Source of the DNA: Trypanosoma brucei
Lineage: Eukaryota
DNA: 64,000 nucleotides
Direction of reading: 5' to 3'
Assembly: GCA_000002445.1 (NCBI GenBank)
Contig: CP000066.1
Span: forward strand, 1,088,001 to 1,152,000
Of the stretch, positions 5,378-26,191 are shown one piece after another. Both the position numbers and the translations under genes were made by a program. The first letter of the stretch is position 1, and the number at the start of each line of letters is the position of its first letter. The notes under the pieces were generated by a model. The model did no database searches. It was not told the DNA's origin and saw nothing but the letters and a program-made list of their open reading frames with translations.

Positions 5378-6845
5378 TGTTTTGTACAGATGGTTAACGC
5401 GTATTATGTGTATTTGTTTTGTTTCCTTCTTTTTATTTTGCTCATGTCAGTTTATTTATTCTTTTTTTCCCCCCTCCCCCTTCCATTCTCCCTTTTTTTT
5501 TCTGTTGTTGGTATTCTTTTAATTGGTCCAACTTTTTTTCTCGTCCGCCATGTGTGTGTGTGTGTGTGTATGTGTGTTTTGTTTTTGTTTTTGTCTCCAC
5601 TGTATTTTGTATTTTCCTTCCTTCCTTCACCACACTTCTTTTTTTTTTTGTTGTCGACCACTATCTGTATTTATTTTATATCCTCATGTGTTTGTGCTTT
5701 TGCTTTGTTGTATATCCTAATATATATATATATATATAATATACGTTAACTTTATTATTATTATTATTTTACGTTATTTATTTATTATCCTCCGATTGAG
5801 CTCGTGTCTTCCCGTTTCTCTGTATTTACACATTCTTCTTTTTTTTTTCCCCCTTTCCCTCTCCTTTGCGGTTACACTTGTGTTTATTTGCTTCATTTAT
5901 TTATTCGGTTTATTTTCTCCTGGTTCGCACGTGTACTGTTTTTCTTTTTTTTTTCTTTTTTCTTCCTGTTGTGTCCCATCAGGGGGAAAATAAATTCAAT
6001 CTTATATTTTGTATTTGACTACTCTTCCCTTCTTTTTGAGTTTTTGTTTTTCTCAAATTTCTTATTTTAAAAAAAAAAGAAATAAAAAAAACAAATCTCT
6101 TTTTTTTTTTTTTGATACGTTTTTATCTCCGTGTTTATTCTTCATTTCCCAATTATTTGCTTTCCTCGGTTGTCACGGCGGTCCGCCGTCCCCTTTTTAT
6201 TTATTTGTTTTTTTCTTTTTCTTATAGACACGACTTATATTTGTGAATATATATATATATTTTTACACCTTCCTCTTGTTCTTTAGTCATTTATTTACTA
6301 TTAACTAATTAATTTCACTTTCTTTTGTTTAATTATTTTTTTAAATTTTATTTGTAGTTATTATTCCAATAAATATATAATATAAATAAATGCTTGAAGG
6401 AACTGAAGTGTGTCCAAGTGGAGACTTGTTTTTGTTTTTTTAATAAAAAGAGAAGAAGATATAGAAAGTAAAGGGATGAAACAAGAGGAAAAAAAAGGGG
6501 GAAAAGTAATGAAAGTTCCTTTTATTTTCATAATAATATATTTATATATATATATATATATTTATTTATTTATATATTTATGTATTGTTTGTTTTGTTTA
6601 TTTAATGGCAAACTTCACGTGTGCGTATGCGTGTAACGGGAGGGAAAACCAAAAAAGAGTGAAAAGGAAATATTTCTCCGTTTGTTTGTTTGTTTGTTTT
6701 TTGAGTTTCTGGTTTTAAAAGAAAAAAAGTAATACAAAACAAAATAAAGCAAAATAGCGAAATGACGAAATAAATGACATTTGTACGAAAGTCATGATAT
6801 TAATAAATATATATAATTAATCACTTCTAATGCCTGGTTTCCACC

Positions 6846-6878
6846 GTTATTATTATTATTATTATTATTATTGTTTCG
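6846..6878. repeat. (TTA)n microsatellite of about 11 units
   Basis: A ttattatta... run read directly from the sequence. Confidence 0.9.
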
Positions 6879-9681
6879 ATTGTTATGTTTCTTCCTTCCT
6901 TCTATTTTGTTTGTTTGTTCGTTTGTGTTCCGACTCAAATGAAGCGGGAGGGAAAACAACACAACACAAGACAAAACATAACGAAAAAAAAATGAAATGA
7001 AATAAAGTAAAGTAAAAGTATCGGAATCAAATGAGTTAAAACGCTGGGAGAATTAAAATGATTGAGCGAAAAGAGTAAAGGAAGAATATATATATATATA
7101 TATAGAAGGAGGAATAATGCATAAAGGAATTATGAGGTGGGGAATAAATAAATAAATAAATAAATAAATAAATGAGTGAATAAATGAATTATTGAGGGAA
7201 ATGTGGACACTACTCAGTTCATTTCCGTAACGATTCCGCGCACCTTTTTAATTTTATTATATTATTATTTATGTTGTTATTATTACTATTTTTATTATCG
7301 TTGCTTTCGTGATGCGGTCCTCTCTTCATTTCCCCTTCTTTTTTTCTCAAATAATAGTTATTTGTTGTTGTTGTTGTTTTTGCCTGTCCCCGTGTTCTTT
7401 CTTCTTGTTTCTTTTAAAAAATTTTATTCACCATTATATTAAAATTAAAATTATTATTATTATTATTGTAATATCATTATTTATTCGGTGTCTTGTTATG
7501 TCCCTCTCCCCGAAAAATAAATAATAAAAAGAAAAATAAATTAATATTTCAAATTCACGGCACTCGGAAGCGGAGGAGAAAAAGGAAATAAACAAACGAT
7601 AACAATAATAGAAAGAATAGAAATAATCAAAAATAAATTATTCATATTTATTTATTTATTCATTCATGTTAAATAATGACGAGAAGAAGTTGAAAATAAA
7701 AAAAAAATAAAACAAAAAAAAGAAAAAAGTAGAAGTAAATGAAAGGAAAACAAAAGACCGAAGTGATTTGTTTTATCTTATTTAGGGTGCTTTAAAACAT
7801 TTGGCCGACAAATACAATACGTGAAGTTATTTTCTCTTCTTTTTATTATATTTATTTTGCCTGAACCTTATTTGTTATTTAATCGCCCTTCTTTTTTCTT
7901 TTTTGTTTTTTGTTGTTGATAGCTCCTCTGAAATGAAAGAAAAAAAAACAAGATAAAAAAAAAGAAACATATATATATATATATATATATGAGCGGAAAT
8001 GTATGTTTTTTTTTTTTTTTTGGGGGGGGGTGTGTGAGGGAAAGTTTTCCCTTTCTTTCCTTTTTATTTTCTTTTCACAGTTGTTCCTCCTCACTCAAAA
8101 ACAAAACAACAACAACAAAAAAAAAAAACAGCTACTATTACTACTGCTAATTGTGTCACCATTTATTTCCTGCTATTATAATTGTTAAATGCTTCCGTTA
8201 TTATTATTGTTTTTATTATTATTGATATTAATATTATTGATTTTGTTATGGTTGAACTCCCTTAAGTACATGTGCTTCTCTTCATTTTCCCCCTCTTTTC
8301 TTCTCTTCTCTTTTCTTTTTTTTTTTCTTTCCTTTAAAAAAAAAAAATCATTTGTTTTGTTTTCTTCTTTACATATCAGCGAAGGAATTACAATAAATTA
8401 AACAGCAGCAGCGACATTTCCGTCCAGAGTTAAAAACAAAAAACAAAAACAAAACAACAACAAAGAAGGAAACTGAAGGAAGGAAGTGATCGAATTAAAG
8501 AAAGAAAAGGCAAAGGCAAAAACAAAACAAATAAAATAGTGCGAAAAGAAAGGGAAGGAAAGTGGAAAGGCAGAGAGAAAGAAAAAAAAAAGAACAAAAA
8601 AAAAAGGGAAAGAAGAGAGAGAGAGAGAGAAGAAAATAAATAAATAAAAGCGAAAGGGGAAAAGGGAATTCATTTACTTGTATTTGTACTTGTGTATTTA
8701 TAAGTAAATACAAAAGAAGAAAAAGGACCAAAAAAAAAAAAGATACAACAACAGCAGCACCCCCCCCCACACACACAAAAAAAAAAGAAGCGGAATAACA
8801 CGGACACACACAAAAGTGAAAGTGAGCGTGTCACGTGAGAAGCAACAAAAAAAAAAAGAAGAGCAAAAGGAGGGTCGGATAAGTCCTTGGGTGATTTTTT
8901 TTTTTTTTTTAAAGGAGAAAAAAGGTGCGGAAAAAAAAAAAGAAAATTAAAACAAAGGGTACGAGGCGCACTTTACCGGGCCACATTGCTTTTTTTTTTT
9001 TTCAATACCATATTTTGGTTGGTTGGTTGTTGTTGTTTTGTCTTGTGTTTCTTTTGCTCTTAAAGGGTGAGTGTAGTTGACACAACTGCAAACACAAGAA
9101 GGGAGAAGAAATAACATATACGCATTTAATAAAGGGAGACAAATACAGCAACCACCACAAAATAGCTGAAAAGGTTGCAAAGGAAGAGAGAGAGAGAGAG
9201 AAAAAAAAAACACCAACACCAACAACAACAACAACAACAAACGATCTGAGAAGTGACTGAAATCACTCGCAGCGGTTTTTGAGCGTGAGTGAACTTCACA
9301 ATACAGGCGAGAGGCAGCCGCACAGCCTCCTTTCACCCTTCACTCACGAGGGTTCCGTGAGGCAGTTAAGGAGCGTGACGAATTAATAAAAAAAAGAAAC
9401 AAGAAAAAAAAAAGAAGAGGAGGAGAAACAGCAACATCAGGTGATATAGCTGTGGGACTGTGAAGAGGAGGTTTCACACACAAGAGGGAGTGTGGTACCA
9501 AAACTATACATACAGATAAAAGCAAGTGCGCATAACCTTCAAGGGAATACGAGAGGGCGTTGTTTGTGTATTTGTTTGCGTTTTTGCGTGTGAGTTTGCG
9601 TGTGTGTGTGTCTGAGAGAGAATAGTAAAAAACAACAACAACAACAACAGCAACAAACAAACCCCAACTGCAGGGTGAGTC

Positions 9682-11463
9682 ATGGAAGTTCCTTTTGAAG
9701 AAGGGACGCAGTTGGTTCATGCAATTGAGCGGTCCCAGCAACGGATTTTGGATGCCTCAGCGGTGAGTGACGTGGAGACGGTACCACCGCCGACAACTAC
9801 TGCAAATGCAAATGCAACTGCTGCTGTTGCTGTTGCTCTTAAGGGTTTAGCCACCACATCTGCGCATGTGCCGCTGCCACTCTTTGGTTTGGATGATGAG
9901 GGTCGAAGTGGCAAAACGCCATTGAATAATGAAAGCGGTCCGGGAACGAGCAGTAGTGGAAGCCATAGCAGCAGCAGCAATGTTCCTGTTGCGAGTTTGC
10001 GAGCCGGTACCGCTGGTACTCCTACCGTCACCCCGGCTGCGGACTCCCGTGCGGAATCTCAAAGTAGGACAAATCTCTTTGTGAGCAATATTCCCCATTT
10101 GTTAGGGAAAAATGAGTTGGTAGATTTATTTTCGCCATATGGAGAAATTCTTTCTGCGGCTGTAATGCGAAATATTCATACGGGTGACAGTCTCGGAACG
10201 GCTTTTGTGCGTTTCGCCACAACAGAACAGGCACAGGCGGCGATGGAGGCTCTAACGGGTTATGTGCTGGAGGGCCGCTCGATGGTTGTTCAATGGGCGA
10301 AGAGGCAACACGACGACACTCCCGTAGGCGAGGCCCGAAAGAAAATTGTGAAGTTATTCGTACGTAACATTCCTTTGGATGTCAGTGACGCCGATCTAAC
10401 TGAAGTGTTCAGCGCGTTTGGTCCAGTGAAGGGCGTGTCAATACATAAAGACACCACGCCAAACGCCGGTCGCCACTTGGAACGTCGCATCGCCTTCATT
10501 ACGTTCCACACCGACGGAGTCGCTGAGAGGGCAGCTGAGGCCATCCACAACACTCGTCCCTTTCACAGTTGTGGAAAAATTCCCCTTATGGTGAAGCTTG
10601 CGGAGGATAACCCCAGACATGGACGCAGTCACAACGCACAAAGTGGCCGCAGCGCTTGGGGACGGAATGGCAACACAAATCAAAACAACGATGGCAGCGT
10701 CAGTCGCAGTAGTCCAAGTGGCAGCGTTAGAAGTAACAAGTCATTAGGGATATCGGGCCATGGTTCCGCGAGAGGGGATATTCGTGGACTCGGTATTGAC
10801 ACACCAGGTGGCCTTCCGGGACTTTTTTCGCTCGGAACCGATGCTTGCGGTTTCCCGGGAGGCGCTTTTGCCGTCTTTCCGACTATGATCCCACAGGGCG
10901 GTGTTTTTGTGCCTCAACCCGTTCTAAACGTTGGCGTAGGCGTAAATGGTCAGGCAATGGCACTGAGGACTCCAATGTTTTGGCATCAGGCCGGCTCCAC
11001 CATTCCGGTTGGTGTTATGGGCCAAAGTCAATCCGCAAATATGGGAGCCACAGGCGGCAATTGTTCACATCAGGGGTTTGCATCCGTTTCTGAGGGTTCA
11101 TCATCCGAGCAGCAGCGTGTGGACATCTTTTCGTCCTTTGCACAACCGCCGCCATTCCCCACAGATCCGTTAGCGGGTCTTGTAGATTCCACGGGGTTTT
11201 CGTTTACGGCTCCTCCTCCTCCTCCTCCTGCTCCTGCTCCTCTTTCTTCTTCTGCAGTGGAGGTCGGCCCGGTTGTAAAAGATGATGTGGAGCCAACGAT
11301 GTGTCCGCATCCGAGCAGTAGTGATGTGTATGACGCCGATTCATCATTATCGCTTGATTTTCTGGAGAATTTGGGCGCGGCGGAGTTGTGCCACGTGACG
11401 ACTCCGTCTGGTGATGAGGACCACCGCCTGCATGCCCCCGGCTCATTTGTGCCGTTTTTGTAA
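9682..11463 (+). CDS. RNA-binding protein with two RRM domains (paralog B) with long low-complexity C-terminal region
   Basis: The ORF is 593 aa. RRM1 reads 'NLFVSNIPHLLGKNELVDLFSPYGEILSAAVMRNIHTGDSLGTAFVRFATTEQA'. RRM2 reads 'KLFVRNIPLDVSDADL...RIAFITFHTDGVAERAAEA'. The C-terminus is rich in Ser, Gly and Pro. Confidence 0.8.
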   Translation: MEVPFEEGTQLVHAIERSQQRILDASAVSDVETVPPPTTTANANATAAVAVALKGLATTSAHVPLPLFGLDDEGRSGKTPLNNESGPGTSSSGSHSSSSNVPVASLRAGTAGTPTVTPAADSRAESQSRTNLFVSNIPHLLGKNELVDLFSPYGEILSAAVMRNIHTGDSLGTAFVRFATTEQAQAAMEALTGYVLEGRSMVVQWAKRQHDDTPVGEARKKIVKLFVRNIPLDVSDADLTEVFSAFGPVKGVSIHKDTTPNAGRHLERRIAFITFHTDGVAERAAEAIHNTRPFHSCGKIPLMVKLAEDNPRHGRSHNAQSGRSAWGRNGNTNQNNDGSVSRSSPSGSVRSNKSLGISGHGSARGDIRGLGIDTPGGLPGLFSLGTDACGFPGGAFAVFPTMIPQGGVFVPQPVLNVGVGVNGQAMALRTPMFWHQAGSTIPVGVMGQSQSANMGATGGNCSHQGFASVSEGSSSEQQRVDIFSSFAQPPPFPTDPLAGLVDSTGFSFTAPPPPPPAPAPLSSSAVEVGPVVKDDVEPTMCPHPSSSDVYDADSSLSLDFLENLGAAELCHVTTPSGDEDHRLHAPGSFVPFL

Positions 11464-12361
11464 CACACAGATGACTATAAAAGAATACGAAGGGTGTGTA
11501 TGTGTGTGGGTTACGAGTTTGTGTACCCTTCGTTCCATTTCGTTTCGCTCCGTTCCGTTTCTTCTCGTTTTCGTTTTCGTTTTTGTTTCGTTTTCGTTTT
11601 CGTTTTTGTTTTGTTTGTTTTTTTAATTTGGGGGACGGGGGATGGGAGGGGTTCCCACTTTTCGGAAACTTGTCTGCGTTCGTGCTTCTGTGTGCCTTTA
11701 GAAGAGGATCAAAAGGAGGAGGAGAGGAGTAGGAAGAAAGGGGGCAAATGATTTTTTTTTTTAAAAAAGAAAATAATAACAAGAGGGAAATGGCAGAGTG
11801 TACGGAGGGGAGTTATTGTACCCTTACTCACCTGTAAAAAAAAAAAAGAAATAGAAGAGTAAATAATAAAATGAAAAACAAAACAAAAAAAAACAACAAC
11901 AAAAGGAAAGGAAAGGAAAGGAAATGGATTCGGTGATTAGAACATAGTGAGCACAAATGGTTGGAGAAGAAAGTTCATAAAAAGAAGGTTTGCAAATGTG
12001 CGCGTTGTAGTGAATTTGGTGTACGTGTGTACGGCGGGGTGGGTTAGGGGTGGCAGGGAAGGAACAAGGAATGTTGTATATTTTTGTAATGAAAAATATA
12101 GTGAAACAAGAGGAATGTCACGCGTTTTTATTGTTATGTGCGCTTTATTATCACTGCTATTGTTATTGTTATCATTATTATTATTATTATTATTACTGTT
12201 ATTGTTATTGTTTTGTTGCTTACCAGAGAGATTTAATGAAGGATTCAGGTACGTGATTGATTGTGTGAAGAATATTGATGATGGATACGGATATGAATAT
12301 ATGAATATATGAATAATATTGTGATAATGATATACAGGACTGAAGTGTGTATGTGTGGAGA

Positions 12362-12392
<31 letters not shown>

Positions 12393-15300
12393 AGACAAGA
12401 GTTATGGGCGCAGGATGCGGGGAGATGTGCGCATTTAATGTGACCAATGAAAAAAAAGGAAAATGAAAATGAAAATATAATAATAATAAGAATAATGTTT
12501 TTCCCCCTTTTTTTAAAAAAGAAATGGAGTGTGAAATGAAAAGAATTAGAGCAGACACGGAAGAGAGTGAGGTAATGAAGCAGAGGAGGGAGATGAGTAG
12601 GAATAATAGAAAGGAATGCCGAAGCTGTGGGAAAGAGAGAGGCGAAAGAAACGAAGCGGAAAATAAAAAGAGGGATGTAACATATCCTTATGTAAATTAA
12701 TGGCTACTTCATTACCCTCAACTCTTTCTTCGATCCCTTTCCTCTCTTAACTCGTCACTTTATATTGTATTATTATTATTATTGATTATATTGTATTATC
12801 TTGTTTAATCTCTTGTGTCCCCCGTTCCGTTTTACCTTCCCACGACATTCAAATAAATTTTTCAATCGTTGACTTCTCGTTCCACCTTCTTTTCCTTCAT
12901 TTCATTTCATTTCACTTCATTTTCCTTTCCTTTCCTTTCCTGTTCTCTTTTTCTTTGCTCTTTTTTTCTTGTCTTTCTCTGTTCATTTCTTTTTCTTTTT
13001 ATCACTTGTTCCCCCCCGCGCGCGCTATTTACCTCCGTTTCCTCTCTTATTTTTGTTGTGTATGTTCGGGCTCTCTTTTTTTTTTCTTTTTTTTTTCTCG
13101 TTGTTTCTGTTCGATATTATTTGTTTTTGTTCTGTCGTGTTTTGTTCGGTGTTCTTTTTTTTTTTTTTTAAGTTTTAGTTTTTTGTTGTTGCGTGTGTTT
13201 TACCTTTTCCCCCATCATCTTGTTTTTTTCCCTGTCATTGTCTCTTGGGATCCGTTTTTGTTTCTGTTTCTCTATTGTTACTTTCCCGTTCATAGTGTAC
13301 GCTTTTCTTTCTTTTTCTTTAATGATAATAATAATAATTATTATTATTGTTTTTATTATATTAAATCAAACGATTCTTTTTCCCTCTTTCGTTTTTTTTT
13401 CAAACAAATTCCCAATACGGCAAAAATCCGGAAGAATGAAAGTAAAGGAATTAAAAAACAAAACAAAAAAAAACAAAAAAAAGCAAAGACGGGAGGAGGA
13501 ACGAGAACAAGAATAGACTTTTTTAAAACAAATGAATTGAACTGAAATGAATTCATATATATTCTCATTTTAAAGGAGGAAAACAACAAGGGAAAGAGGA
13601 AAAAAGAAAACTAATATTTATGATATGAAGGGAAATATTTCTCCCGTTTTGTTCGTTTTTCTCATGGGTGCATTCGAGCAAAATAAATGAGACAACTCAA
13701 GACGAAATAAAGTGAAAAAGAGAAGGAAAAAAAAAAAAGAAAAAGAACAACAAAGAAATGAGGGAATGAAGAAAATATCTCTCGGTCTTCCATTAGTTCA
13801 CTCACCACCTCCACTCATATAAAAAATATATATATATAAATAATTAATTAAATATATCAATATAAATTTATACATTTATTATTTTATTATTACTACTAAT
13901 ATTATTACAGTTATTATCATCATCATCATCATCACTATCATCATCATTATTGTTATTATTGTTCTTTTTTTTTCTTTATTGTTTATTGTTTTTAAAATTA
14001 TTATTATTATTATTATTATTGTTATTGTTGTTCATCGTAGTTGTGATGGCGGCAACAAATAATGAGTGGAGGTTGCATGGCCAAACTAAAAGGAAGAGGG
14101 AAACGAGGGGAAACGAGGAAAAGGAAAAAAAAAGAAAAAAGAAAAGAGTGAAATTAAATGAATTAAATGAAATGTATAATATATAATGTATAATCCACCA
14201 ATATTTTGTTTTTTTTGTTTTTGTTTTTGTTTTTTTGCCTTTGGTTTACTTGTGAAAGAAAGGAAAGAAAGACCAAACAAAATGAATTGAAGTAAATGGC
14301 AAAAAAAAAGAAAAAAAAGTAACAAAAGCAAAAGACAAAGGGGGAAAAAACAACAACAACAAAAAGGTGTGAGATTATACAAAATTGTATGTTCCTTTAA
14401 GAATTTGTGTTTGTTTGTGGTTTGTTTATTATTATTATTATTATTATAATTTTCATCGTGACTCATTACCGTTGAAAGTAGTCGTCCATTTTGACAAAGC
14501 GGAGAGGCGAAGGGGGAGTGGTGGTGGTGGTGGTGAAGTGGAGAAGTGGAGAAGTGGAGAGGGGGGGGGGAAAAAACAAAAGAAAAGAAGAAATTTTGTA
14601 TGAGAGAAAATCAAATTTAAAAACAAAAACAAAACAAAAAAAAACAAACAAAATGTATAAATATAAATAAAAGAAAAAGAAAAGAAAAAAAATGACATAT
14701 TGGGGAATTACACCACGTCAAGTGTACGAAAAAAGTGAAATTGAATTGAATTGAATGAGATAAGATGAGATGAGATGAAACGCAAAATGTACACACGTAA
14801 AAAAAGGGGGGGGAGGAAAAAGAAAAGAAAAGAAAATAATAATTCCTTTTTTTTAAAAAAAAAGGAGGAACTGAAGAAATATCGCCATGGGAGGAGAGAC
14901 GGTGACCGCTAAAGTGACCGATATGACACAAATAACAATTAAATAAAATGAGCGAATGAGCGCTTTCGTTTAGCAAAAAAAAAAAAAATAATAATAATGA
15001 TAATAATAATTAAAAGTGACGGGCTTTCGTTATTATTTCCAAGTGGCAGAAAAAAAAAAAGAAAAATAAAGGAAAGTGAAGAATATGTTGTGTGCGTGTG
15101 TTTTCTTTTTCTTTTTTTCTTTTTTTTTTTTCTCTCCTTCTCACAAATTAAAAGAAAAACAAAATAGTAATAAAAGAGAGAGAGAGTGAGTGAGTGAAGA
15201 AAGGAAGAAAGGAAGGAAAAAGAGGTAACAGAAAAAATGAAAAGGAAAAGAATAAAGGAGAATATACCTTTATGCAGAAATAAATAAATAAATAAATAAA

Positions 15301-15870
15301 TGTACACATTCATATACGTTATGGTCACATAAATTTAGAGAAGGATATGAAGAAGGAGGAGGAGGTAAAAAAAGAAAAAAAAATAAAGGAATGCAAAAAA
15401 AATAAAATATATAAATAAATATATATATATATACACAGTTCGAATGAAGATTAACAAGTGAAAAGTTGATGGGATTATGGAATTCCAAAAATAAATAAAA
15501 AAAAAGAGGAAAAATAAAATGGGGGGGAGGGAAGAGAGACCGGGTTACGCAATAATAATAATAATAATAATATTTTTTCCCTCCCTCTTTTCTATTTTCT
15601 TCTTCTTCTTTTTTCTTTTTTTCTTTTTGTGCCTCACACGTGTGTATTTATTTATATATGTGTTTATATTCCGTCTCATATCTTTTTCCCACCATCACTG
15701 CTATGGTTTTGATAGCGGAATTCAGCAGAAGATACAACACCAACACGTTGCATTTACACGGGCACATTTTTTTTTTTTTGCTTCTTCATATATTTTTACT
15801 CACGCGGTTTTTTTGTTGGTATATTTGGTAAAATGCCCCGGTGTTTTTATTGTTTTTTCTTGTTATTGCC

Positions 15871-15906
<36 letters not shown>

Positions 15907-16089
15907 GTGTTCGCTGCTTTTCCCTCCCAAACCGTAACGCCGTGTGTCATGTAAACAAGTGATTTTTGTTGTTTCCTTTTTTTCTTTTTCTTTTCCTTTT
16001 TTATTTTATTTTAATTTGATTAATTCTTCCTTTCTTTCCTATCAAAAACAAAACAAAACAGAAAATAAATAAAAACACATATACACATA

Positions 16090-16092
<3 letters not shown>

Positions 16093-16145
<53 letters not shown>
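16093..16145. repeat. (CA)n microsatellite of about 26 units
   Basis: An uninterrupted acacac... run read directly from the sequence. Confidence 0.95.
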
Positions 16146-16148
<3 letters not shown>

Positions 16149-16404
16149 GAATAAATAATAATAATAATAAAACAACCGTTCATTTGCCACCGTTAGCATA
16201 TTTTACTAACAACAGCATCATTTCAATAATATTAATATCAATAATAATAATAATAATAACGGTAGTAATGGTAACTATTATATTATCAATATTATTATTA
16301 CGTTATTATTGTTATGTTTATTTATTTATTTTGAATTGTTTTTGATATTATTATTATTATTGATATTATTGTTGTTGTTGTTCTTATGTTAATGAGATAT
16401 GAGG

Positions 16405-16410
<6 letters not shown>

Positions 16411-16455
<45 letters not shown>
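16411..16455. repeat. (TA)n microsatellite of about 22 units
   Basis: An uninterrupted tatata... run read directly from the sequence. Confidence 0.95.
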
Positions 16456-16458
<3 letters not shown>

Positions 16459-19400
16459 TACATTTATTATTATTATTATTATTATTTTAAAGAGCGTGGC
16501 ACCGAAGTGCTGAATAAAAGTGAAAATGAAAATGAAACGAAATTTTATGTTATGTTATGTTGTGTTGTGTTGTGTTATGTTTTTATTTTATTTTTGAATG
16601 GAGATGGGAAAGAAACACATAAGGCACTGAAAATGGAATGCATCGTTCATCGTTTTTTTTTTGTTTTCTAGAAACAACCCCGGAGAAACCCGAAGGGGAA
16701 ATACAAAAAAAAAAGGAAAGGGAATATAATATGTATATTTTTATATTTATAGCAATGGGATGATGAAAGGTGGAGGGAAGAATATGCGAGGATACGTATG
16801 GAGTTTTATGTTGTATTAATAATTTCAGCAAAAAAAAAAAGGAGGAGGAGGAAAGGAAGAACAGGAAAATAAAAAGGAAAAATAAAAAAAAAAGATAAAA
16901 TAAAAGCAAAAAAAAAAACTTGAAATATGTGTGGACGTGATAACATAATCACGCCTTTCCCCTGTTCTTTGCTTTTAATTTTTATTTTTGTTAGCGTTGT
17001 TTTTCTTGTCATTTGCTACGAAAGACCTGAGATAAATGCGTATCTGTTTTGTTGTTTTTTTTTCTTTTGTTAATAATCTCTTTATTATGTTATATTATAT
17101 TATATATTGTACTCAAATTAAATTAAATTAAATTTTTGTACTGTATTGTCTTGTCTTTTCTTGTCGTAACGCTGCCAGTAGTCGCAGCAGCAGTTTTGGT
17201 CTCGAGGGAAGAGATGGATTGAAATGAATTTTAGAAAAAAAAAACAATAGGAAATAATAATAATAATAATTATTATTATTATTATTGTTGTTATTGTTAT
17301 TGTTATTGGTAAAACCGAAATAATTGTAAAGCAACGAGGAGGGGATGGTAATGAAAGTGGTGAAAAGGTACGAGTGGTGCATGGAACTCTTTTCTTTCTT
17401 TTTTTTAGAAAAAAAAGAAAGAAAAGAGAATGACATGAAGAATTTTTATGCCCGTTATACTTTAGATGTAAAGGAATAACAACAGAAACAAAAACAAACG
17501 ATAATAATAATATTAATAACAACAATATCATCATCATCAAGGAAGTCGCTTAACAAAAAAAAAAAGAAAATGTACACAAAGGTGCAAAAATGCACAAACT
17601 TATAAATATATAAATATAAATATAAATATGTATGAATACATGTTTGTATTTTGTATTTTGTATATATTTATATATACGTAAATTTCTTTAAGTGTTACGA
17701 TTGCTATGTTGAAGTGAAGCGATTCATTTGACGGAGCGGTACCCGGTAATCGCACGAATTTTATTTATGCCATTTCCTTACCGGACTGTCCTCTTTTTTT
17801 TTTTTTCTTTCACTTCCTCTTCATATTGTTCCTTTTCTGATTTATTGTTTTTGTTTTATTTACTTATTTTTATTTCCTCCCCTCTTAGGCATATTTCCCC
17901 CACCTTCCTTCCCTCCGTGGTTTCATTTGCTATCGGCAGTACCGATCTGTGTTCTTTTTTTTTTTAAAATAAAAGAAAAAGGAAAACAAAAAAAAACTTT
18001 TGGCTTTGATATTTCCCCCGATTATTATTGTTATTATTGTTATTATTGTTATTATTATTATTGTTATTGTTATTATTGTTTTTGTTATCGTTTGTTTTCA
18101 TTGCTGTGTTTTCATCGTGTAACCGCATCTTTTTTTTTTGTTATTTGTTTTTCTTTCCTTTTGTGTACGCTTATATTTGTACAAATATATTTGCATATGT
18201 ATCTGCGTGAATGCGTGGTTTGTGTTTTGTTTTTGTTTTATTTTATTTTCCTGCTTCTCACTTGCACGTCAGTTTCAACATCAACAACATCAACATCAAC
18301 ATCAACAACAAAAAGAAAAAGAAAAAAGAAAAAGAAAAAGAAAAAGAAAGCAGCTCTGCCCACATTCCCTCACCCGTTTCCTGTTTTTTTCACTTACACT
18401 TTTTGTTTTTGTTTTTGTTTCCATTTTGCTCTGCTCGACTCTTTTTTGTTTTTTTTTTGTTTTCAAGTTTGTTTCCACCGCGTGACTTTCTTTTTCCATC
18501 CCAGTGTGTTATGATTAGGATTATGACAGCTATAGTTACTACAATTATAATTATAATTACAATTGCAATTTATTGTTATTATGATTGTGGTTGTTGTTAT
18601 TTGCCCCCTTTTCATTGTTCGTCTGTGTCATTCTTCCACGCCCCTCTGCCTTTTTTTCTTTTCCTTTTTTTCTTTTCTTTTCTTTTTTTTCTTTTCCCAT
18701 TTTGTTTGTTCGTTTGTTGTTTTGAATTTATTCATTCATTCATTCGTTTTCTCTTTGCCTTTTATTTTTACTTTTAATTGAATGAAAGGCTTTTCACTTA
18801 TGTGTGTTGCCACCTGCGGGAATTTTTTTCACACACCTCATCTCTTTTTTTTTTCTCTCTCTCTCTCTCTTTCTCTTTCTCTTTCTCTTCTTTTTCTTCT
18901 TTTGCCACTTTTCCCTTCTTTCTTCAGCTGAGTCAAACAATCCGTAATATATATAAATAAATATATAAAAATATAAATATATATATATATATCTTTTCCC
19001 TGTTGTTTTTTTTTCTTCTTCTTTTACTGATATTACTCACATATGTATTCTTTTACTTGAGCCCTCATTCCATTTATCTTTTTTCCTTCTTATTCTTCTT
19101 TGTTCTTTTTCTTTTTTTCATATTTCACTTTATTCGAATAACTTTTGCTCGTGTAAATGATAAAAATAAAATAGAAAGAACAAAGAAGAAGAAAGGGAGA
19201 CAGCCATACAAAGAGGTGGGAAATAGGAAAAGGTAGAAGAAAATAATAAAAAAAAAAGAGAGAGTGAGAGTAAGAGTGAGAAATAGTGCGCGTGTTTGTG
19301 TGAAAGTTGTTCGCATTAGTGTTTTTGACGACACGTGAGCGGACGGTGCTTTTTTTGTTTGTTTGTTTGTTTTGTTTTGTTTTCAGTACTTAACCAACGG

Positions 19401-19570
19401 AAAGAGAAAAGGGAGAGAGAGAGAGAAAAAAAAAGAAAGAAAAAAATATATAAATATACACATAAATATATAAATAGTAGCAAAGGTTGAAAAGAAAACA
19501 ATAGCACCGTATCGAAGTCAAAAGGAAGTGAGTGAGTGAGTGAGTGCGTAAGAGGAAGGAGGAGAATAAA

Positions 19571-21223
19571 ATGCCTCCAAAACGCTCAAAAGGTGTAACA
19601 TTTAAACTCGTCCACCAGCCATATGATGACGCGGAGAACACCGGAGGGCGTAAAGCCATAATGGTGGAAGAGCGAATAGTGCGTCAGCATTTACCGGCAT
19701 CGGGTTCAGGACGCGGACGCCGTCAGCGGGATGATGATGACAGCTTTTGTGATGATGGAGGAGCCTCTATGTCAACTGTAAGTCGTTGGGCACAAGAATG
19801 GGATGAGACATCGGCACCAACTGAACGTAACGCAGGAATGTTAGAAGGTGAAGAGGATTACTTAAATAGGCACAACTTTCTTTTGGCACAGGACCCTGAT
19901 GATGATGATGATAATAATAATAATAATAAAAATAAAAATGATGAATGTGCTGATGATGGCGGCTATGAGGATATTAGTGATAATGACGGTGGTGCATGTG
20001 AAGGAGTTACTAAGAAGTCTAGAAGTGAAGCCGCTGACGGTGAGGAGGAAAGTAGTGACGATAAATTGTTTGATGACCAGGAGGAAGGTGAAGTAACGGA
20101 TGAGTTTCTGAGACAGTTGGTTTTTGGCGGAGAAGACGATGATTTGGATGTTGACAGGCGCCGATGTGGTGATGATGATGATGATGATGATGACGGCAAT
20201 GATGACGGAAGTACAAACCGTGACAACGTCCCGGCAAGTTTTGTGCCACATGACACGACACGGCGTGCGATTGACCGCCAGTTCACACAACTGATGCGTG
20301 AGTTCACCGTTGATGAGAGGTTAAATGACGCTTATACCGATGACCCGCGGACGCAAGGTGCGCTAGACGCTGACCAGTACCTCCGCGCTATGGAAGAGTT
20401 TGTCGTTGAGCGTGCCGGTATTGATTATAGAACTGCTGAGCCAATGCGAAATAAGGGCCTTATTCACCAGCTAAAGAGCATGGCATACGGCGTTCCAACC
20501 GACATGACGGCTTCGGGTGATGTAATCACAACGACAATTTTGCCTGACAAAAAAATACGTTTCGCAACGGAATTTAAACGGGAGACAGAGGAGATCCGGA
20601 GAGCCGCTCGGGAGCGTATATTGCGCCGTCAGGCTGAGGCTCAGAAGAACGCTGCGGACGGTGAAGTGAAAATAGGTCATGATAGCATGGGCGCTAGTGA
20701 AGAAATGGATGATGATTGTAATCACGATGATGGCACATTTCAGGTGAGGAATGCTGCAAAAGCGAATAACTCATCAGAATGTGGCAGCGAGTCGCAGGAG
20801 GAGGAGGAGGAGGGGGAAACATATGTTGTGCGGAGGATCGTAGATAAGTCCAACCGCCTTGATTGCGAGACAGTTTTATCAACTTACTCCACGTACTTCA
20901 ATCAACCTAACGTCATACGGGCCCCAGACGCGGGAAAGAAGCGGAAGGGTAAAAAAGTTACTCAACCGCACCGTGACAATAATGAGGGTGATGACATGTC
21001 GCAGGAGGTGCCGGACTTGAGCACGTCGGTGTTGTCCTTAGCGAAAGGAAAGAATGAATCGAAGGAGGAGAAAAAGATGCGAAAGCAGTTGGTAAAGGAT
21101 CTGAAGCGCGAACGCCGTGGGAAGAAGAAGGAACTTCGACAAGTGTACAAGACAATGGAGGCTGAAGAAGCCCGCCGTGTGAAGGAGTCGCAAACGGCGA
21201 GGAAGACATTGTCCTTCTTGTAA
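19571..21223 (+). CDS. LTV1: LTV1 homolog (pre-40S ribosome biogenesis/export factor), highly acidic
   Basis: The track ORF is 19544–21223, and the likely start is 'MPPKRSKGVTFKLVHQPYDD' at 19571. The N-terminus matches the LTV1 N-terminus ('...KKKAVSFHLVHRSQRDP'). The C-terminal blocks 'LDCETVLSTYSTYFNQPNVIRA' and 'KNESKEEKKMRKQLVKDLKRERRGKKKEL' match human LTV1 'WDCESICSTYSNLYNHPQLIKY' and 'KNESKEDKRARKQAIKEERKERRVEKK'. Long Asp/Glu runs are present. Confidence 0.8.
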   Translation: MPPKRSKGVTFKLVHQPYDDAENTGGRKAIMVEERIVRQHLPASGSGRGRRQRDDDDSFCDDGGASMSTVSRWAQEWDETSAPTERNAGMLEGEEDYLNRHNFLLAQDPDDDDDNNNNNKNKNDECADDGGYEDISDNDGGACEGVTKKSRSEAADGEEESSDDKLFDDQEEGEVTDEFLRQLVFGGEDDDLDVDRRRCGDDDDDDDDGNDDGSTNRDNVPASFVPHDTTRRAIDRQFTQLMREFTVDERLNDAYTDDPRTQGALDADQYLRAMEEFVVERAGIDYRTAEPMRNKGLIHQLKSMAYGVPTDMTASGDVITTTILPDKKIRFATEFKRETEEIRRAARERILRRQAEAQKNAADGEVKIGHDSMGASEEMDDDCNHDDGTFQVRNAAKANNSSECGSESQEEEEEGETYVVRRIVDKSNRLDCETVLSTYSTYFNQPNVIRAPDAGKKRKGKKVTQPHRDNNEGDDMSQEVPDLSTSVLSLAKGKNESKEEKKMRKQLVKDLKRERRGKKKELRQVYKTMEAEEARRVKESQTARKTLSFL

Positions 21224-23598: not shown

Positions 23599-26191
23599 GC
23601 GACGCCTTGCCTACCCTTTGCCTTGCCTTTCTTTGCCTACCCTTTGCCTTGCCTTCCTTCTTTCCTTCTTTCCTTTATTTCGTGTTGTTTTTTTTTGTTT
23701 CTTTTCAAAAAAAAAACAAAGGAAAGTTATGTGGTGATATGATTTGCATTTTTTTTTTCATATATATATATATATATATTGAATAAGTTGTGCCGTTTCT
23801 CTGGCATGCTAGCTCTTTAGTTTATTATTATTATTATTACTGCACCTTCAGCAGCAGTGGATGAAATGAAGGGGAGAGACGGGAGTATTTGCTGATCCGT
23901 TCTTTTTTTTTCATTTTATTATTTTCATTAGTTTTATTATGTTTATTTGGACCATGTGCGTGGGTCTTTATTTATTTCAACGTCGTCTCCTCTCATGATT
24001 TATTCACCACATTTTGTTTGTTTATTTTTATTTTCCCCTCCTCTCCTCCCCTCTCCCGTATTTATTTTATTTGCTTCCAGTATTTCCCTTGAGTCAAGGG
24101 TGAGGTGACAGTCATTAATGACATCAATAATTTCCTCCCACTTGCCTAATGACGTTGAGACGATTCTTTTCGAGTCTCTTTTATTTATTTATTTATTTAT
24201 TTTTTCTCTCTTATTTTTATTTATTTAACTTTATTTATTTAGTTTTATTGCTCTCCGAGTGTTTATTATTGTTAATATCATTTATGACGTTTGATTTATC
24301 CTTTTTATTTTTTATTATTTTTGAATAGAAGGCGACTGAAAATAGGAGGGGGGGGAATTACGAAGTTGAGCGGGGTTTTGTTATATTTGGCCCCTGCAGT
24401 GCTTGAAAAAAGCTCAAAGACAATAACTTCGGCTCCTCCTAATCAAATGAAATGACGCTCTGAATAAATTCCCGTTTATTTTTTGTGTTTATTTATTTTT
24501 TTTATTTGCTTATTTTGTTTGTTTTCTTCAAGGTTATTATTATTATTACTGTTACTATATATATATATATATATATATGATATTTATTTTACGTTTATTT
24601 TTACGTTATTAAAAAAAAAAATATAATGATTCATTCATTTTATTTTTATTTATTTCGTTTAGTTCTGCTTGTGAGTGATTTGTGTATCTGTTAGAGAGGA
24701 TAAATAAAATTAGAGAGAAGAAAAAATAAAATAAAATGAAAAAGAAAATGAAAGGAAAGAGGGAAGAGGAGGAAAATAATAATAATAATTATTATTATTA
24801 TATACAAGTGATGGGACTGGCATATTTTACATAAACCAGTGTGTGTGTATGTATTTTTATCTTGTTAATATTTTAATACGTACGAATTGATTGACAATGA
24901 TGATGAAGGAGGGAAATAAATAAATAAATAAATAATTGAAACAAAATCGAGCCGAAAGGGAAAATGCAGAGGTGACAACAACAATAACAAAAACTGGTAG
25001 CAAAGCTAATATGAATGTCAATGAAAATAATGACAATAATAATAGTAATAATGACAATTATATAATATTAATAATGACAATACCGAAAAAGGTATTACTT
25101 TTGTTTTTGTTTCTATTTACCCTTTCCTCCCTCCTCTTCCCTCCTCTTTTCTTTTACCCATCAGCCGAAGTGTTTGTATTTTTTTTTCCTGTTTATTATT
25201 ATTATTTATTATTATTGTTGTTATTATTGTTGCGGGTTTTTGTTACTGTTTTTGCTACTAATGTTGAGCTGTTCCTCATTTCCTTTCCTTCTTTCTTGTT
25301 TGTTTGTTTAAGTTTCATTATTATTATTATTTATTTATTTTTTTAAAGGAAAACTCTCTTGTTTTAATGAGAAGTGAAATGCGATCACATAAATCAATAA
25401 ATGGATGAATTAAAAGAAAAGAAAAGAAAAAAAATGCCTGATTTTGCGTGAACTTAATCTCTCCACATTTATTTATTTCTTGTGTTGTTTATCTTATTCT
25501 TTACGTAATGCAGTTTTAATGGAGCAATGGTGAGGAGATGACACACAAATATATACAGAATCAAAGTCCCGAAGCAAAAGAGAAGGAGAGAGAGGAAAAA
25601 AAAACGGTAAGATATTTAAGATGACGGTAGATTTTTTTTTTAAAAAAAAGGAGAGATAAAAGGAAATAACAAAAGAAGTGAAGTGTCAACATAAAAAAAA
25701 AAAAGAAAAGAGAAAGGAAGAAAGAGAACAGCAAAGAAATGAGGAAAAAGAAATATATAAACACATAAATGGTGAAAATGACATTTCATCCCTTTTTTTG
25801 GTGATGCTCATATTTCTTCACTGGAGCTATCAGCGATACTTCCGGCACCAAAAAAGAAAAAAAAAATAAGAATTTGTTTTGACTTCATAGCATAATGTTT
25901 GTTTGTCTTTTTTTCTATCCATATCTTCTCATTGATTTTTGTTAATTAAATGGTAGCGTCATATTTAGCGTCTCATTTTGGTGGTTGTTGTTGCTGTTGT
26001 TGTTCAAGCCGCGTGTTAGGCGCATTATTATTATTATTACAACTAGTCCTTAGTCACAAACAGAAATACGCACACGCATATATATATATATATATTGTGG
26101 GTTTTTTTTACTTTGTGTTAAACAATAAATAAATAAATAAATAAAAAACGCATTTAGTTGCTTAGCGCACTTTATAGGACACATCCGTTCA

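What the first reader, a model, noticed from the sequence alone, without database searches (positions are those of the whole stretch)
11464..19543. An 8-kb AT-rich, microsatellite-dense gap downstream of RRM paralog B (and 4.3 kb downstream of paralog A): probable giant 3'UTRs of regulatory RNA-binding-protein genes
Typical kinetoplastid intergenic spacing is about 1–2 kb. Here 11464–19543 (8.1 kb) and 5378–9681 (4.3 kb) have no credible ORF. They are packed with poly(T)/poly(A), (TA)n, (CA)n, (TTA)n, (GT)n, (TC)n and T-rich 'ttatt' elements. They are also T-rich on the sense strand, as expected for a 3'UTR of plus-strand genes. In T. brucei, developmental regulator RBPs are known for exceptionally long, instability-element-rich 3'UTRs; RBP10 is about 7.3 kb. 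So these gaps are likely long regulatory 3'UTRs, possibly with embedded non-coding transcripts, rather than empty spacer.
Basis: partly seen in the sequence, partly recalled or inferred. Interest (0 to 1): 0.5.

Follow-up and report, generated by a model that had tools for sequence, protein, structure and literature searches.

The report
Probable giant UTRs of trypanosome DRBD11
The 8-kb gene-free, repeat-rich stretch lies downstream of the RNA-binding-protein gene DRBD11 on Trypanosoma brucei chromosome 3 and is most likely that gene's ~7.5-kb 3' untranslated region, an ordinary example of a known habit of trypanosome regulator genes, though no poly(A) site could be retrieved to prove it.

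Summary
The window is T. brucei brucei TREU927 chromosome 3 (v4 positions 1,088,001-1,152,000). Paralogs A, B and C are DRBD6B (Tb927.3.3930), DRBD11 (Tb927.3.3940) and DRBD6A (Tb927.3.3960).

The stretch 11464-19570 is 8.1 kb and 30% GC, and 22% of its bases lie in perfect microsatellites. It has no coding-like, conserved or annotated ORF, no tRNA and no Rfam match. It is not T-rich on the sense strand: T/(A+T) is 0.516.

Published spliced-leader mapping (Kolev 2010) shows one acceptor between the DRBD11 start codon and the next gene, at 19175. It lists no novel transcript in the gap. Polyadenylation is coupled to the downstream splice site (median 142 nt). This predicts a DRBD11 poly(A) site near 19.0 kb and a 3'UTR of about 7.5 kb. 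No poly(A) data could be retrieved, so this step is inferred.

The 4.3-kb gap is composite. DRBD11's acceptor is at 8380, giving a 1,302-nt 5'UTR with no ATG at all (13 expected). Orthologs keep a long ATG-free leader.

Long 3'UTRs of RNA-binding-protein mRNAs are already described (RBP10, DRBD12, ZC3H20-22). Verdict: an ordinary new member of a known kind, of low to moderate interest.

The parts
8267..8379 (+). Polypyrimidine tract (8267-8335, 69 nt) and AG acceptor (8378-8379) used for trans-splicing of DRBD11 (Tb927.3.3940) mRNA
   Evidence: The Kolev 2010 Table S12 major splice acceptor is at chr3 1,096,380, which is window 8380. That position falls directly after an AG. The longest PPT in the 200 nt upstream is 8267-8335.
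8380..9681 (+). DRBD11 5'UTR: 1,302 nt, A-rich (44% A), with no ATG at all
   Evidence: The acceptor is at 8380 with a dispersion of 6.1 nt, so no appreciable use of acceptors nearer the ATG. There are 0 ATG against 13.0 +/- 2.8 in 1000 dinucleotide shuffles, none of which reached 0; ATG is the only absent trinucleotide. Orthologs keep ATG-free leaders of 609-1,415 nt, against 175-342 nt for neighbouring genes.
9682..11463 (+). DRBD11 (Tb927.3.3940) coding sequence: 593 aa, two RRM domains
   Evidence: Exact match to XP_843986.1 of T. brucei brucei TREU927. Pfam RRM_1 matches in two stretches. Named DRBD11 in PMC4055773.
11464..19000 (+). Putative full-length DRBD11 3'UTR, about 7.5 kb; the 3' end is inferred, not mapped
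   Evidence: No ORF, RNA gene, mapped acceptor or listed novel transcript lies inside it. The poly(A) site is predicted 123-235 nt upstream of the acceptor at 19175. A gap of comparable size exists in T. vivax: 7,004 bp with no Ns.
12873..13401 (+). Largest internal polypyrimidine block, with tracts of 195, 42, 33, 20, 68, 43, 25, 25 and 28 nt and AGs at 13171, 13294 and 13433. It is a candidate cryptic trans-splice region that would give a 3'UTR isoform of about 1.3 kb
   Evidence: PPT scan and sequence. Use of this region is inferred, not shown.
14464..15463 (+). A/purine-rich block: pyrimidine fraction 0.24-0.39, including (GAAA)-like and (AAAC)n repeats
   Evidence: Composition windows and sequence.
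17759..18925 (+). Distal run of long polypyrimidine tracts, including 99, 83, 133 and 103 nt
   Evidence: PPT scan and sequence.
18935..19060 (+). Predicted zone of DRBD11 polyadenylation: an A/T-rich (TA)n/(AAATAT)n stretch just upstream of the PPT that serves Tb927.3.3950
   Evidence: Inference from the Kolev 2010 median splice-site-to-poly(A)-site distance of 142 nt (interquartile range 123-178) and from the sequence. It is not mapped.
19062..19174 (+). PPT (19062-19135, 74 nt) and AG acceptor (19173-19174) of Tb927.3.3950
   Evidence: Major splice acceptor at chr3 1,107,175, which is window 19175, with a 5'UTR of 396 nt. AG context and PPT are shown.
19175..19570 (+). 5'UTR of Tb927.3.3950 (396 nt, no ATG). 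This last 5% of the 'gap' belongs to the downstream gene
   Evidence: The ATG-free run begins at 19157.
5378..8240 (+). Predicted DRBD6B (Tb927.3.3930) 3'UTR, about 2.9 kb; the 3' end is inferred
   Evidence: The next acceptor is at 8380 and poly(A) sites lie about 142 nt upstream of the acceptor. No novel transcript is listed. Microsatellites cover 17%.
23599..25815 (+). Predicted DRBD6A (Tb927.3.3960) 3'UTR, about 2.2 kb; the 3' end is inferred
   Evidence: The next acceptor, for Tb927.3.3970, is at 25957. Microsatellites cover 14.8%. UAUUUUUU occurs 6 times against 2.2 expected.

Best explanation
The region 11464-19570 is the non-coding tail of the DRBD11 (Tb927.3.3940) transcription segment on T. 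brucei TREU927 chromosome 3.

RNA polymerase II reads through it as part of the Tb927.3.3440-4000 polycistron. No internal trans-splice site is used at a detectable level. DRBD11 mRNA is therefore cleaved and polyadenylated only where the splicing machinery engages the polypyrimidine tract of the next gene (19062-19135, acceptor at 19175). That places the poly(A) site near 18.95-19.05 kb.

The predicted mRNA is about 10.7 kb: a 39-nt spliced leader, a 1,302-nt ATG-free 5'UTR, a 1,782-nt CDS and a 3'UTR of about 7.5 kb. The last 396 nt of the gap are the 5'UTR of Tb927.3.3950.

By analogy with RBP10, DRBD12 and ZC3H20-22, I infer that the long UTR keeps the mRNA scarce and offers many binding sites for trans-acting proteins. 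I also infer that its roughly 67 internal polypyrimidine tracts must be masked, probably by DRBD18-type proteins, to prevent premature processing. When masking fails, shorter isoforms should appear, for example one ending near 12.7-12.85 kb, together with spliced non-coding fragments.

Shown: gene identities, acceptor positions, absence of coding or known RNA genes, repeat content, and comparative gap sizes. Inferred: the poly(A) position, the continuity of the transcript, and any regulatory role.
For: - Identity: the window's proteins match TREU927 XP_843984/6/8/9 exactly, and the names come.
- Coordinates: window position = chr3 position minus 1,088,000. All 16 published acceptor coordinates then land directly after an AG.
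- Kolev 2010 Table S12 goes from Tb927.3.3940 (acceptor 8380) straight to Tb927.3.3950 (acceptor 19175, dispersion 22.9 nt).
- Its complete Table S7 has no novel transcript between chr3 1,050,259 and 1,115,978. The nanopore novel-lncRNA list has three entries on chr3, none in this window.
- One + strand Pol II unit spans Tb927.3.3440-4000.
- No coding or structured-RNA content.
- ATG density is 17 per kb in the gap. The ATG-free run before Tb927.3.3950 starts only at 19157, so the distal gap is not a long leader of the next gene.
- Comparative: T. vivax has the same order with gaps of 3,924 and 7,004 bp and no Ns. T. melophagium has 4,136 bp with no Ns. L. martiniquensis has no annotated gene within 10 kb downstream of its homolog.
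- Precedent: RNA-binding-protein and kinase mRNAs have the longest 3'UTRs. RBP10's is 7.3 kb and the DRBD12 mRNA is 8.4 kb.
- DRBD11 mRNA and its translation are regulated. RPKM is 235 in bloodstream forms and 22 in salivary-gland forms. The mRNA is a CSD1 CLIP target whose polysome association changes after RBP6 induction.
Against: - No poly(A) site, RNA-seq coverage or Northern blot for DRBD11 could be retrieved. The Kolev poly(A) tables are cut in the held copy, and the supplements of Siegel 2010, Guegan 2022 and the DRBD18 paper are not held.
- Kolev reported 3'UTRs only up to about 6,000 nt, for 1,902 genes. A 7.5-kb UTR was therefore not among their measured ones.
- Acceptor mapping used short reads from procyclic forms and required at least 10 reads per site. 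Weak or stage-specific internal sites in repeat-rich sequence could have been missed.
- The gap holds 67 internal polypyrimidine tracts of at least 18 nt followed by AG, and several are longer than the tracts that are actually used.
- The 1,428 lncRNAs of Guegan 2022 could not be checked.
- No sequence block is conserved between species.
- Gap length is not constant: 2.4 kb in T. cruzi and about 4 kb in T. grayi and T. melophagium.
- Clayton's 2019 table suggests DRBD11 mRNA differs little between cultured bloodstream and procyclic forms; the column meanings are uncertain.
Confidence: 0.68

Rival explanations
1. DRBD11 has a short or medium 3'UTR (about 0.2-1.5 kb), and the rest of the gap is cut into independent, spliced-leader-capped and polyadenylated non-coding RNAs (lncRNAs). 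Processing would use internal polypyrimidine tracts such as 12873-13401, 15571-15704 or 17759-18925.
For: - There are 67 internal PPT-AG candidates, several stronger than the tracts actually used.
- T. brucei has about 1,428 mostly intergenic lncRNAs with normal processing signals. One of them (grumpy) lies next to RBP7 genes.
- Processed ORF-less RNAs from intergenic regions are a described outcome of alternative site choice.
- Non-coding RNAs arise from inside long 3'UTRs when DRBD18 is depleted.
- No DRBD11 poly(A) site was retrievable.
Against: - No novel transcript is listed in the gap by Kolev 2010 or by the nanopore study.
- The splice-site table has no entry between 8380 and 19175.
- The low dispersion at Tb927.3.3950 (22.9 nt) excludes appreciable upstream acceptors assigned to that gene.
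Confidence: 0.22
2. The gap is functionally inert spacer. Microsatellite expansion would have inflated an intergenic region that is transcribed only because it sits in a polycistron. Whichever UTR it belongs to, its sequence would carry no regulatory information.
For: - 22% of bases lie in perfect microsatellites.
- No sequence conservation with T. vivax, T. grayi, T. theileri or T. cruzi.
- Many repeat-length indels between T. b. brucei and T. b. gambiense: 95 gap openings in 7 kb.
- Known motifs are not enriched beyond the repeats themselves.
- Gap length varies from 2.4 to 8.1 kb among species.
Against: - The three longest gaps of 13 all follow the three RRM paralogs (P = 0.0035).
- The same ranking holds in T. 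vivax despite different base composition.
- The homolog in Leishmania also has a gene-free flank of at least 10 kb.
- RNA-binding-protein mRNAs as a class have long 3'UTRs, and RBP10's was shown experimentally to hold at least six regulatory segments.
- This reading concerns function and is compatible with the region being the 3'UTR.
Confidence: 0.08
3. The gap hides an unannotated gene: a small protein, a snoRNA cluster or another structured RNA.
For: Kolev 2010 found over a thousand novel transcripts genome-wide, some of them coding for small proteins. Sub-threshold Rfam hits exist.
Against: - No Rfam hit reaches its gathering score, and the sub-threshold hits are (AT)n-type palindromes far below threshold.
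- No tRNA.
- No conserved six-frame ORF.
- The codon statistics of all ORFs of at least 100 aa are non-coding-like.
- No Pfam match above cut-off.
- No such protein exists in any public collection.
- No novel transcript is listed.
Confidence: 0.02

Closest known systems
RBP10 (Tb927.8.2780) mRNA 3'UTR of T. brucei
   Same: It is the multi-kilobase 3'UTR (about 7.3 kb, mRNA about 8.5 kb) of an RRM-protein mRNA and contains many internal polypyrimidine tracts. The predicted DRBD11 UTR is the same size and also carries (U)12 (9 overlapping hits) and (U)6C(U)6 (3 hits) tracts on the sense strand.
   Different: RBP10's UTR is mapped by RNA-seq, ribosome profiling and Northern blots, and at least six regulatory segments are defined by reporters. 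For DRBD11 nothing is mapped or tested. RBP10 is strongly bloodstream-specific, whereas DRBD11 shows only an 11-fold difference between bloodstream and salivary-gland forms and little apparent difference between cultured forms.
DRBD12 mRNA (about 8.4 kb) and other DRBD18-dependent long-3'UTR mRNAs
   Same: It is an RRM-protein mRNA dominated by its 3'UTR. Internal polypyrimidine tracts are normally ignored and are used when DRBD18 is depleted, which gives 2.6-kb and about 4-kb isoforms. This is the mechanism I propose for how the DRBD11 gap stays unprocessed.
   Different: DRBD18 binding to DRBD11 mRNA, or an effect of DRBD18 on it, was not checked, because the supplementary tables are not held.
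ZC3H20, ZC3H21 and ZC3H22 mRNAs (3'UTRs over 4-5 kb with multiple UA(U)6 RBP10 sites)
   Same: They are a tandem cluster of paralogous RNA-binding-protein genes, each followed by a multi-kilobase 3'UTR. The DRBD6B-DRBD11-(3950)-DRBD6A arrangement is similar.
   Different: Those UTRs carry 2-9 UAUUUUUU motifs. The DRBD11 gap has 1 where 4.4 are expected, so RBP10-mediated repression is unlikely. Only the DRBD6A gap is mildly enriched, with 6 against 2.2 expected.
Intergenic lncRNAs of T. brucei such as grumpy, upstream of RBP7
   Same: It is a non-coding, AT-richer stretch next to RNA-binding-protein genes and has normal trans-splicing and polyadenylation motifs.
   Different: grumpy is a mapped, spliced-leader-capped and polyadenylated transcript. 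No such transcript is listed in the DRBD11 gap in the two lists that could be checked.

Membership tests
Long 3'UTR of a T. brucei RNA-binding-protein mRNA (RBP10/DRBD12/ZC3H20-22 type) | The upstream gene encodes an RNA-binding protein | tested here: met
   There are two RRM_1 stretches. The gene is Tb927.3.3940, DRBD11. It acts as a repressor in the tethering screen.
Long 3'UTR of a T. brucei RNA-binding-protein mRNA (RBP10/DRBD12/ZC3H20-22 type) | No other gene (protein-coding or known RNA) lies between the stop codon and the next gene's splice acceptor | tested here: met
Long 3'UTR of a T. brucei RNA-binding-protein mRNA (RBP10/DRBD12/ZC3H20-22 type) | No trans-splice acceptor is used between the stop codon and the next gene's acceptor | tested here: inconclusive
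   None appears in Kolev 2010 Tables S12 and S7 or in the nanopore lncRNA list. Those data cover procyclic forms, short reads and sites with at least 10 reads, and the full table of all sites is cut. The Guegan lncRNA set is not available.
Long 3'UTR of a T. brucei RNA-binding-protein mRNA (RBP10/DRBD12/ZC3H20-22 type) | A mapped poly(A) site several kb from the stop codon, just upstream of the next gene's polypyrimidine tract | not testable with these tools
   The poly(A) tables are cut or not held. The position of about 19.0 kb is inferred from the 142-nt coupling distance.
Long 3'UTR of a T. brucei RNA-binding-protein mRNA (RBP10/DRBD12/ZC3H20-22 type) | One continuous mRNA of the predicted size (about 10.7 kb) seen by Northern blot or long reads | not testable with these tools
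   No expression data are accessible. Exact-sequence look-ups of the window's genes found no transcript contigs.
Long 3'UTR of a T. brucei RNA-binding-protein mRNA (RBP10/DRBD12/ZC3H20-22 type) | The UTR confers regulation on a reporter or binds defined regulators | not testable with these tools
   This needs an experiment. Motif counts give no support for RBP10 sites or for classical AUUUA elements.
Scanned 5'UTR (for 8380-9681) | A mapped spliced-leader acceptor upstream, and no upstream AUG between it and the start codon | tested here: met
   The acceptor is at 8380 with AG and PPT. There are 0 ATG in 1,302 nt against 13.0 +/- 2.8 expected. All eight mapped leaders in this unit have 0 uAUG. 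Caveat: Kolev's table gives the 5'UTR length of this gene as 'NA'.
Independent lncRNA locus (Guegan/Kolev type) | Its own spliced-leader site and poly(A) site define a transcript of more than 200 nt with low coding potential | tested here: not met
   No entry in the gap in Kolev Table S7 (a complete list) or in the nanopore list. The Guegan list was not checked.

The most novel reading that the evidence does not exclude
DRBD11 mRNA may be an extreme 'regulated regulator', about 83% untranslated.

First, its 1.3-kb A-rich 5' leader is purged of every AUG, and orthologs from T. vivax, T. cruzi and Leishmania keep ATG-free leaders of 0.6-1.4 kb. This leader may be a dedicated platform for translational control, for example for cold-shock-domain proteins such as CSD1 during RBP6-driven development.

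Second, its 3'UTR of about 7.5 kb may be an array of masked trans-splice and polyadenylation signals. Stage-specific unmasking would switch the gene between a long, poorly expressed isoform and short isoforms plus lncRNA by-products.
Probability: 0.2. Interest if true: 0.55.

Novelty: new member of a known kind. Interest (0 to 1): 0.27.

Why it matters
Trypanosomes control genes almost entirely after transcription, so how the regulators themselves are regulated is a central question. If DRBD11 carries a 1.3-kb AUG-free leader and a 7.5-kb 3'UTR, it joins RBP10 and DRBD12 as a test case for two things. One is how cells ignore dozens of strong internal splice signals. The other is how very long UTRs set expression. 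DRBD11 is uncharacterised; Clayton's 2019 table says 'no information found'. The locus is in the reference genome, so public RNA-seq tracks could settle the UTR boundaries in minutes. For that reason the finding is mostly confirmatory and not a discovery.

Tried and rejected
Searches for direct poly(A) or UTR-length data on Tb927.3.3940:
- The DRBD18 paper, Guegan 2022 and Siegel 2010 hold no supplementary text.
- The RBP10-UTR paper's supplements do not list the gene.
- Fadda 2014's tables are cut before it.
- Kolev's poly(A) tables S5 and S13 are cut and contain no genes from this region.
- Clayton 2019's table lists DRBD11 but gives no UTR length.

Searches for transcript contigs:
- Exact-protein look-ups of DRBD11 and Tb927.3.3950 found nothing on record.
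- T. congolense DRBD11 is not in the contig collection.
- Ten gap ORFs are absent from the protein collection.

Cross-species comparisons:
- blastn of the gaps gave only low-complexity hits.
- Six-frame blastp gave none.
- The 7.5-kb gap in T. theileri was discarded as a length estimate because it is 57% N. T. melophagium was used instead.
- The shorter gap in T. b. gambiense (6.9 kb) is explained by a 101-N assembly gap, so it is not counted as a real deletion.

Internal and motif checks:
- The three paralog-flanking gaps share no duplicated sequence; only microsatellites match.
- Enrichment of UAUUUUUU, AUUUA, UGUA and UUGUACC was tested and none was found. The excess of (UAU)n, (UA)n and U12 simply reflects the microsatellites.
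- The Rfam E-value mode returned only palindromic low-complexity hits.

Full report
**What the window is**

Seven predicted proteins were looked up by exact sequence. Five, among them paralog B (593 aa) and paralog C (377 aa), are identical to proteins of Trypanosoma brucei brucei TREU927 on the 1.65-Mb chromosome 3 record. The literature names Tb927.3.3930 DRBD6B (paralog A), Tb927.3.3940 DRBD11 (paralog B) and Tb927.3.3960 DRBD6A (paralog C).

Kolev et al. 2010 (PMC2936537) list the major trans-splice acceptor of each gene in chromosome coordinates in Table S12. Subtracting 1,088,000 reproduces four start codons exactly. It also puts all 16 listed acceptors of this window directly after an AG dinucleotide. 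The window is therefore chr3 (v4) 1,088,001-1,152,000, and published processing sites can be read onto it.

**The observation**

- The gap from the DRBD11 stop codon (11463) to the first ATG of Tb927.3.3950 (19571) is 8,107 bp.
- It is the largest of 13 CDS-to-CDS gaps in the window, whose median is about 1.3 kb. The three largest (8.1, 4.3 and 2.6 kb) are exactly the three that follow the RRM paralogs. That has a 1/286 chance under random assignment.
- GC is 0.30, against about 0.5-0.58 in coding sequence.
- Perfect microsatellites of at least 12 nt cover 21.7% of the gap, against 0-11% in ordinary spacers here.
- Nothing in the gap looks like a gene. There are no tRNAs and no Rfam family at gathering score; only palindromic low-complexity hits appear below it. 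No Pfam match reaches its cut-off for the ten longest ORFs.
- The codon statistics of all 17 ORFs of at least 100 aa fall outside the range of the 13 real genes.
- No six-frame ORF is shared with the syntenic gaps of T. vivax, T. grayi, T. cruzi or T. theileri, while the neighbouring CDS is found easily.
- None of ten gap ORF products occurs in a 15-billion-protein collection.

The gap is not T-rich on the sense strand: T/(A+T) is 0.516, which is less than in the short spacers. It is a mosaic of pyrimidine-rich and A/purine-rich blocks. Polypyrimidine tracts are about as abundant on the minus strand as on the plus strand.

**What the published maps say**

All genes from Tb927.3.3440 to Tb927.3.4000 belong to one plus-strand Pol II unit, so the gap is necessarily transcribed as precursor. 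Between the DRBD11 ATG and the next ATG, the only acceptor in Kolev's Table S12 is at 19175. It sits behind a 74-nt polypyrimidine tract at 19062-19135 and gives Tb927.3.3950 a 396-nt 5'UTR.

Kolev's Table S7 is held complete. It lists no novel transcript between chr3 1,050,259 and 1,115,978, so none lies in either long gap. A nanopore direct-RNA study lists three novel lncRNAs on chr3, none of them here.

[quoted passage not shown] The simplest reading follows. DRBD11 mRNA is polyadenylated at about 18.95-19.05 kb, in the A/T-rich stretch just before the polypyrimidine tract of the next gene. Its 3'UTR would then be about 7.5 kb.

This last step is an inference. I could not retrieve any poly(A)-site table covering this gene. 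Kolev's measured 3'UTRs reached only about 6 kb for 1,902 genes, and those early estimates are acknowledged to miss the longest UTRs.

**The second gap is composite**

Kolev's acceptor for DRBD11 is at 8380, 1,302 nt upstream of its ATG. The dispersion is 6 nt, which leaves no room for appreciable use of a site closer to the ATG.

The sequence supports this independently. There is not a single ATG on the sense strand from 8270 to the start codon at 9682. Dinucleotide shuffles of 8380-9681 expect 13.0 +/- 2.8, and none of 1000 shuffles reached zero. ATG is the only one of the 64 trinucleotides that is absent. All eight mapped 5'UTRs in this unit are free of upstream ATGs.

Orthologs keep an unusually long ATG-free leader:

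| Species | ATG-free leader upstream of the DRBD11 ortholog (nt) |
|---|---|
| T. b. gambiense | 1,415 |
| L. martiniquensis | 1,008 |
| T. vivax | 905 |
| T. cruzi | 795 |
| T. theileri | 611 |
| T. melophagium | 609 |
| Neighbouring genes (six checked, T. vivax, T. theileri, T. melophagium and T. cruzi) | 175-342 |

So 5378-9681 consists of a predicted DRBD6B 3'UTR of about 2.9 kb, then the splice signal, then a 1.3-kb DRBD11 5'UTR. That 5'UTR is ten times the species median of 130 nt.

By contrast the 8-kb gap has 138 ATGs (17 per kb). The ATG-free run before Tb927.3.3950 begins 18 nt upstream of its mapped acceptor. The distal gap is therefore not a long leader of the downstream gene.

**Comparative evidence**

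| Species | Gap after the DRBD11 ortholog | Note |
|---|---|---|
| T. vivax | 7,004 bp | Same gene order; gap after the first RRM gene is 3,924 bp; no Ns; other spacers 368-1,468 bp |
| T. melophagium | 4,136 bp | No Ns |
| T. grayi | 3.8 kb | 11% N |
| T. theileri | 7.5 kb | 57% N, so unusable as a length estimate |
| T. cruzi | 2.4 kb | Only one RRM gene in this position |
| L. martiniquensis | At least 10 kb downstream with no annotated gene | Homolog, not a confirmed ortholog |
| T. b. gambiense | 6.9 kb, collinear | 94% identity with 95 repeat-length indels; apparent shortfall sits at a 101-N assembly gap |

No primary-sequence block is conserved across species. The three paralog-flanking gaps share nothing but microsatellites. 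The RRM cores of DRBD6A and DRBD6B, in contrast, are 99.8% identical over 583 bp.

Long non-coding flanks are thus a lineage-wide property of this gene family. Their sequence is not conserved.

**Mechanism**

Shown here:
- the gene identities;
- the acceptor positions;
- the absence of other genes;
- the repeat content;
- the presence of 67 internal polypyrimidine tracts of at least 18 nt followed by AG, several of them longer than the tracts actually used (195, 134, 133 and 103 nt).

Inferred:
- The tracts are normally ignored. This is how the RBP10 and DRBD12 UTRs behave, where DRBD18 is proposed to mask internal tracts and its depletion gives truncated mRNAs plus spliced non-coding fragments.
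- The full-length mRNA is therefore about 10.7 kb, of which 83% is untranslated.
- The long UTR lowers abundance and provides many protein-binding sites. This is what Clayton proposed for RNA-binding-protein and kinase mRNAs in general.

Regulation of DRBD11 exists at some level. RPKM is 235 in bloodstream forms and 22 in salivary-gland forms. The mRNA is a CSD1 CLIP target whose polysome loading changes at least 3-fold after RBP6 induction.

UAUUUUUU occurs once where 4.4 are expected. AUUUA is depleted (21 against 37.7 expected). The apparent excess of (UAU)n, (UA)n and U12 is the microsatellites themselves.

**Rivals**

- The main rival is a short DRBD11 3'UTR with the remainder processed into lncRNAs. 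It is favoured by the many internal signals and by the existence of about 1,428 intergenic lncRNAs, one of which lies next to RBP7 genes. It is disfavoured by the absence of any listed transcript or acceptor in the gap. I give it about 0.22.
- 'Inert spacer' concerns function and does not change what the region is: a region can be both the 3'UTR and functionally inert. The association with all three paralogs, and with orthologs in other species, argues against pure accident.
- A hidden gene is effectively excluded.

**Comparison with what is known, and novelty**

The class is well described. It covers the multi-kilobase 3'UTRs of T. brucei RNA-binding-protein mRNAs, namely RBP10, DRBD12 and ZC3H20-22.

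This locus meets the features of that class that can be tested from sequence and published acceptor maps. The defining experimental features are a mapped poly(A) site, a transcript of the right size, and reporter activity. None of these could be tested here.

No paper in the searchable library discusses the DRBD11 UTRs, and Clayton's 2019 table says 'no information found' for the protein. I therefore file it as a new member of a known kind in a reference genome whose public expression tracks would settle the matter quickly.

The one element that goes beyond the expected is the conserved, completely AUG-free 1.3-kb 5' leader.

Interest is low to moderate (0.27).

Noticed in passing
window 8270-9681: The 1.3-kb leader of DRBD11 contains no ATG at all, where 13 +/- 2.8 are expected, and is 44% A. 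Orthologs in T. vivax, T. cruzi, T. theileri, T. melophagium and Leishmania keep ATG-free leaders of 0.6-1.0 kb, against 0.18-0.34 kb for neighbouring genes. Kolev's table gives this gene's 5'UTR length as 'NA' without explanation.
   Followed up: yes
window 4387-4969 vs 22569-23151 (also 4415-4668 vs 10129-10382): The RRM cores of DRBD6B and DRBD6A are 99.8% identical over 583 bp, while their flanks and UTRs are unrelated. This suggests recent gene conversion confined to the coding core. DRBD11 is 88.8% identical over 258 bp.
   Followed up: partly
window 34646-35507: A 70-bp tandem repeat of 12.3 copies at 98% identity, G-rich, with consensus GTGGCCCAGGGCGGTGGGGAAACGG.... It sits in the convergent strand-switch region, just upstream of Kolev's novel transcript Tb3.NT.49 (window 35626-36616, + strand).
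   Followed up: no
window 27978-28366 (+) and 58137-59796 (-): Kolev 2010 novel transcripts Tb3.NT.47 and Tb3.NT.51 map into ordinary spacers of this window. The first lies after the LYAR-type gene Tb927.3.3970, which is also flagged as having an alternative 3'UTR. The second lies in the spacer between the minus-strand genes at 55431-58103 and 60265-62052. Non-coding transcripts were thus detected elsewhere in the window but not in the two long gaps.
   Followed up: partly
L001 (T. vivax) 20056-21523; L004 (T. cruzi) 10001-17204: The number of paralogs differs between species. T. vivax has no DRBD6A-type gene between the Tb927.3.3950 ortholog and the LYAR gene. T. cruzi has a single RRM gene upstream of the 3950 ortholog, where T. 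brucei, T. vivax and T. theileri have two.
   Followed up: partly
window 60319-61673 vs 62580-63934 and 59673-59987 vs 61994-62308: There are tandem minus-strand paralogs at 60265-62052 and 62562-63950; Kolev's Tb927.3.4070 acceptor (62117) lies between them. They are 96.6% identical over 1.36 kb. A 315-bp flanking segment is also duplicated at 96.5%.
   Followed up: no
window 31194-32510: This 438-aa plus-strand ORF has no Pfam hit. Its position suggests it is Tb927.3.3990, but it has no entry in Kolev's splice-site dispersion table, although both neighbours do.
   Followed up: no
L009 (Leishmania martiniquensis) 1-21977: The Leishmania homolog (LSCM1_04432) has no annotated gene within 10 kb downstream and about 7.7 kb upstream. 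Both flanks are strongly pyrimidine-rich on the sense strand, unlike the strand-balanced T. brucei gap.
   Followed up: partly
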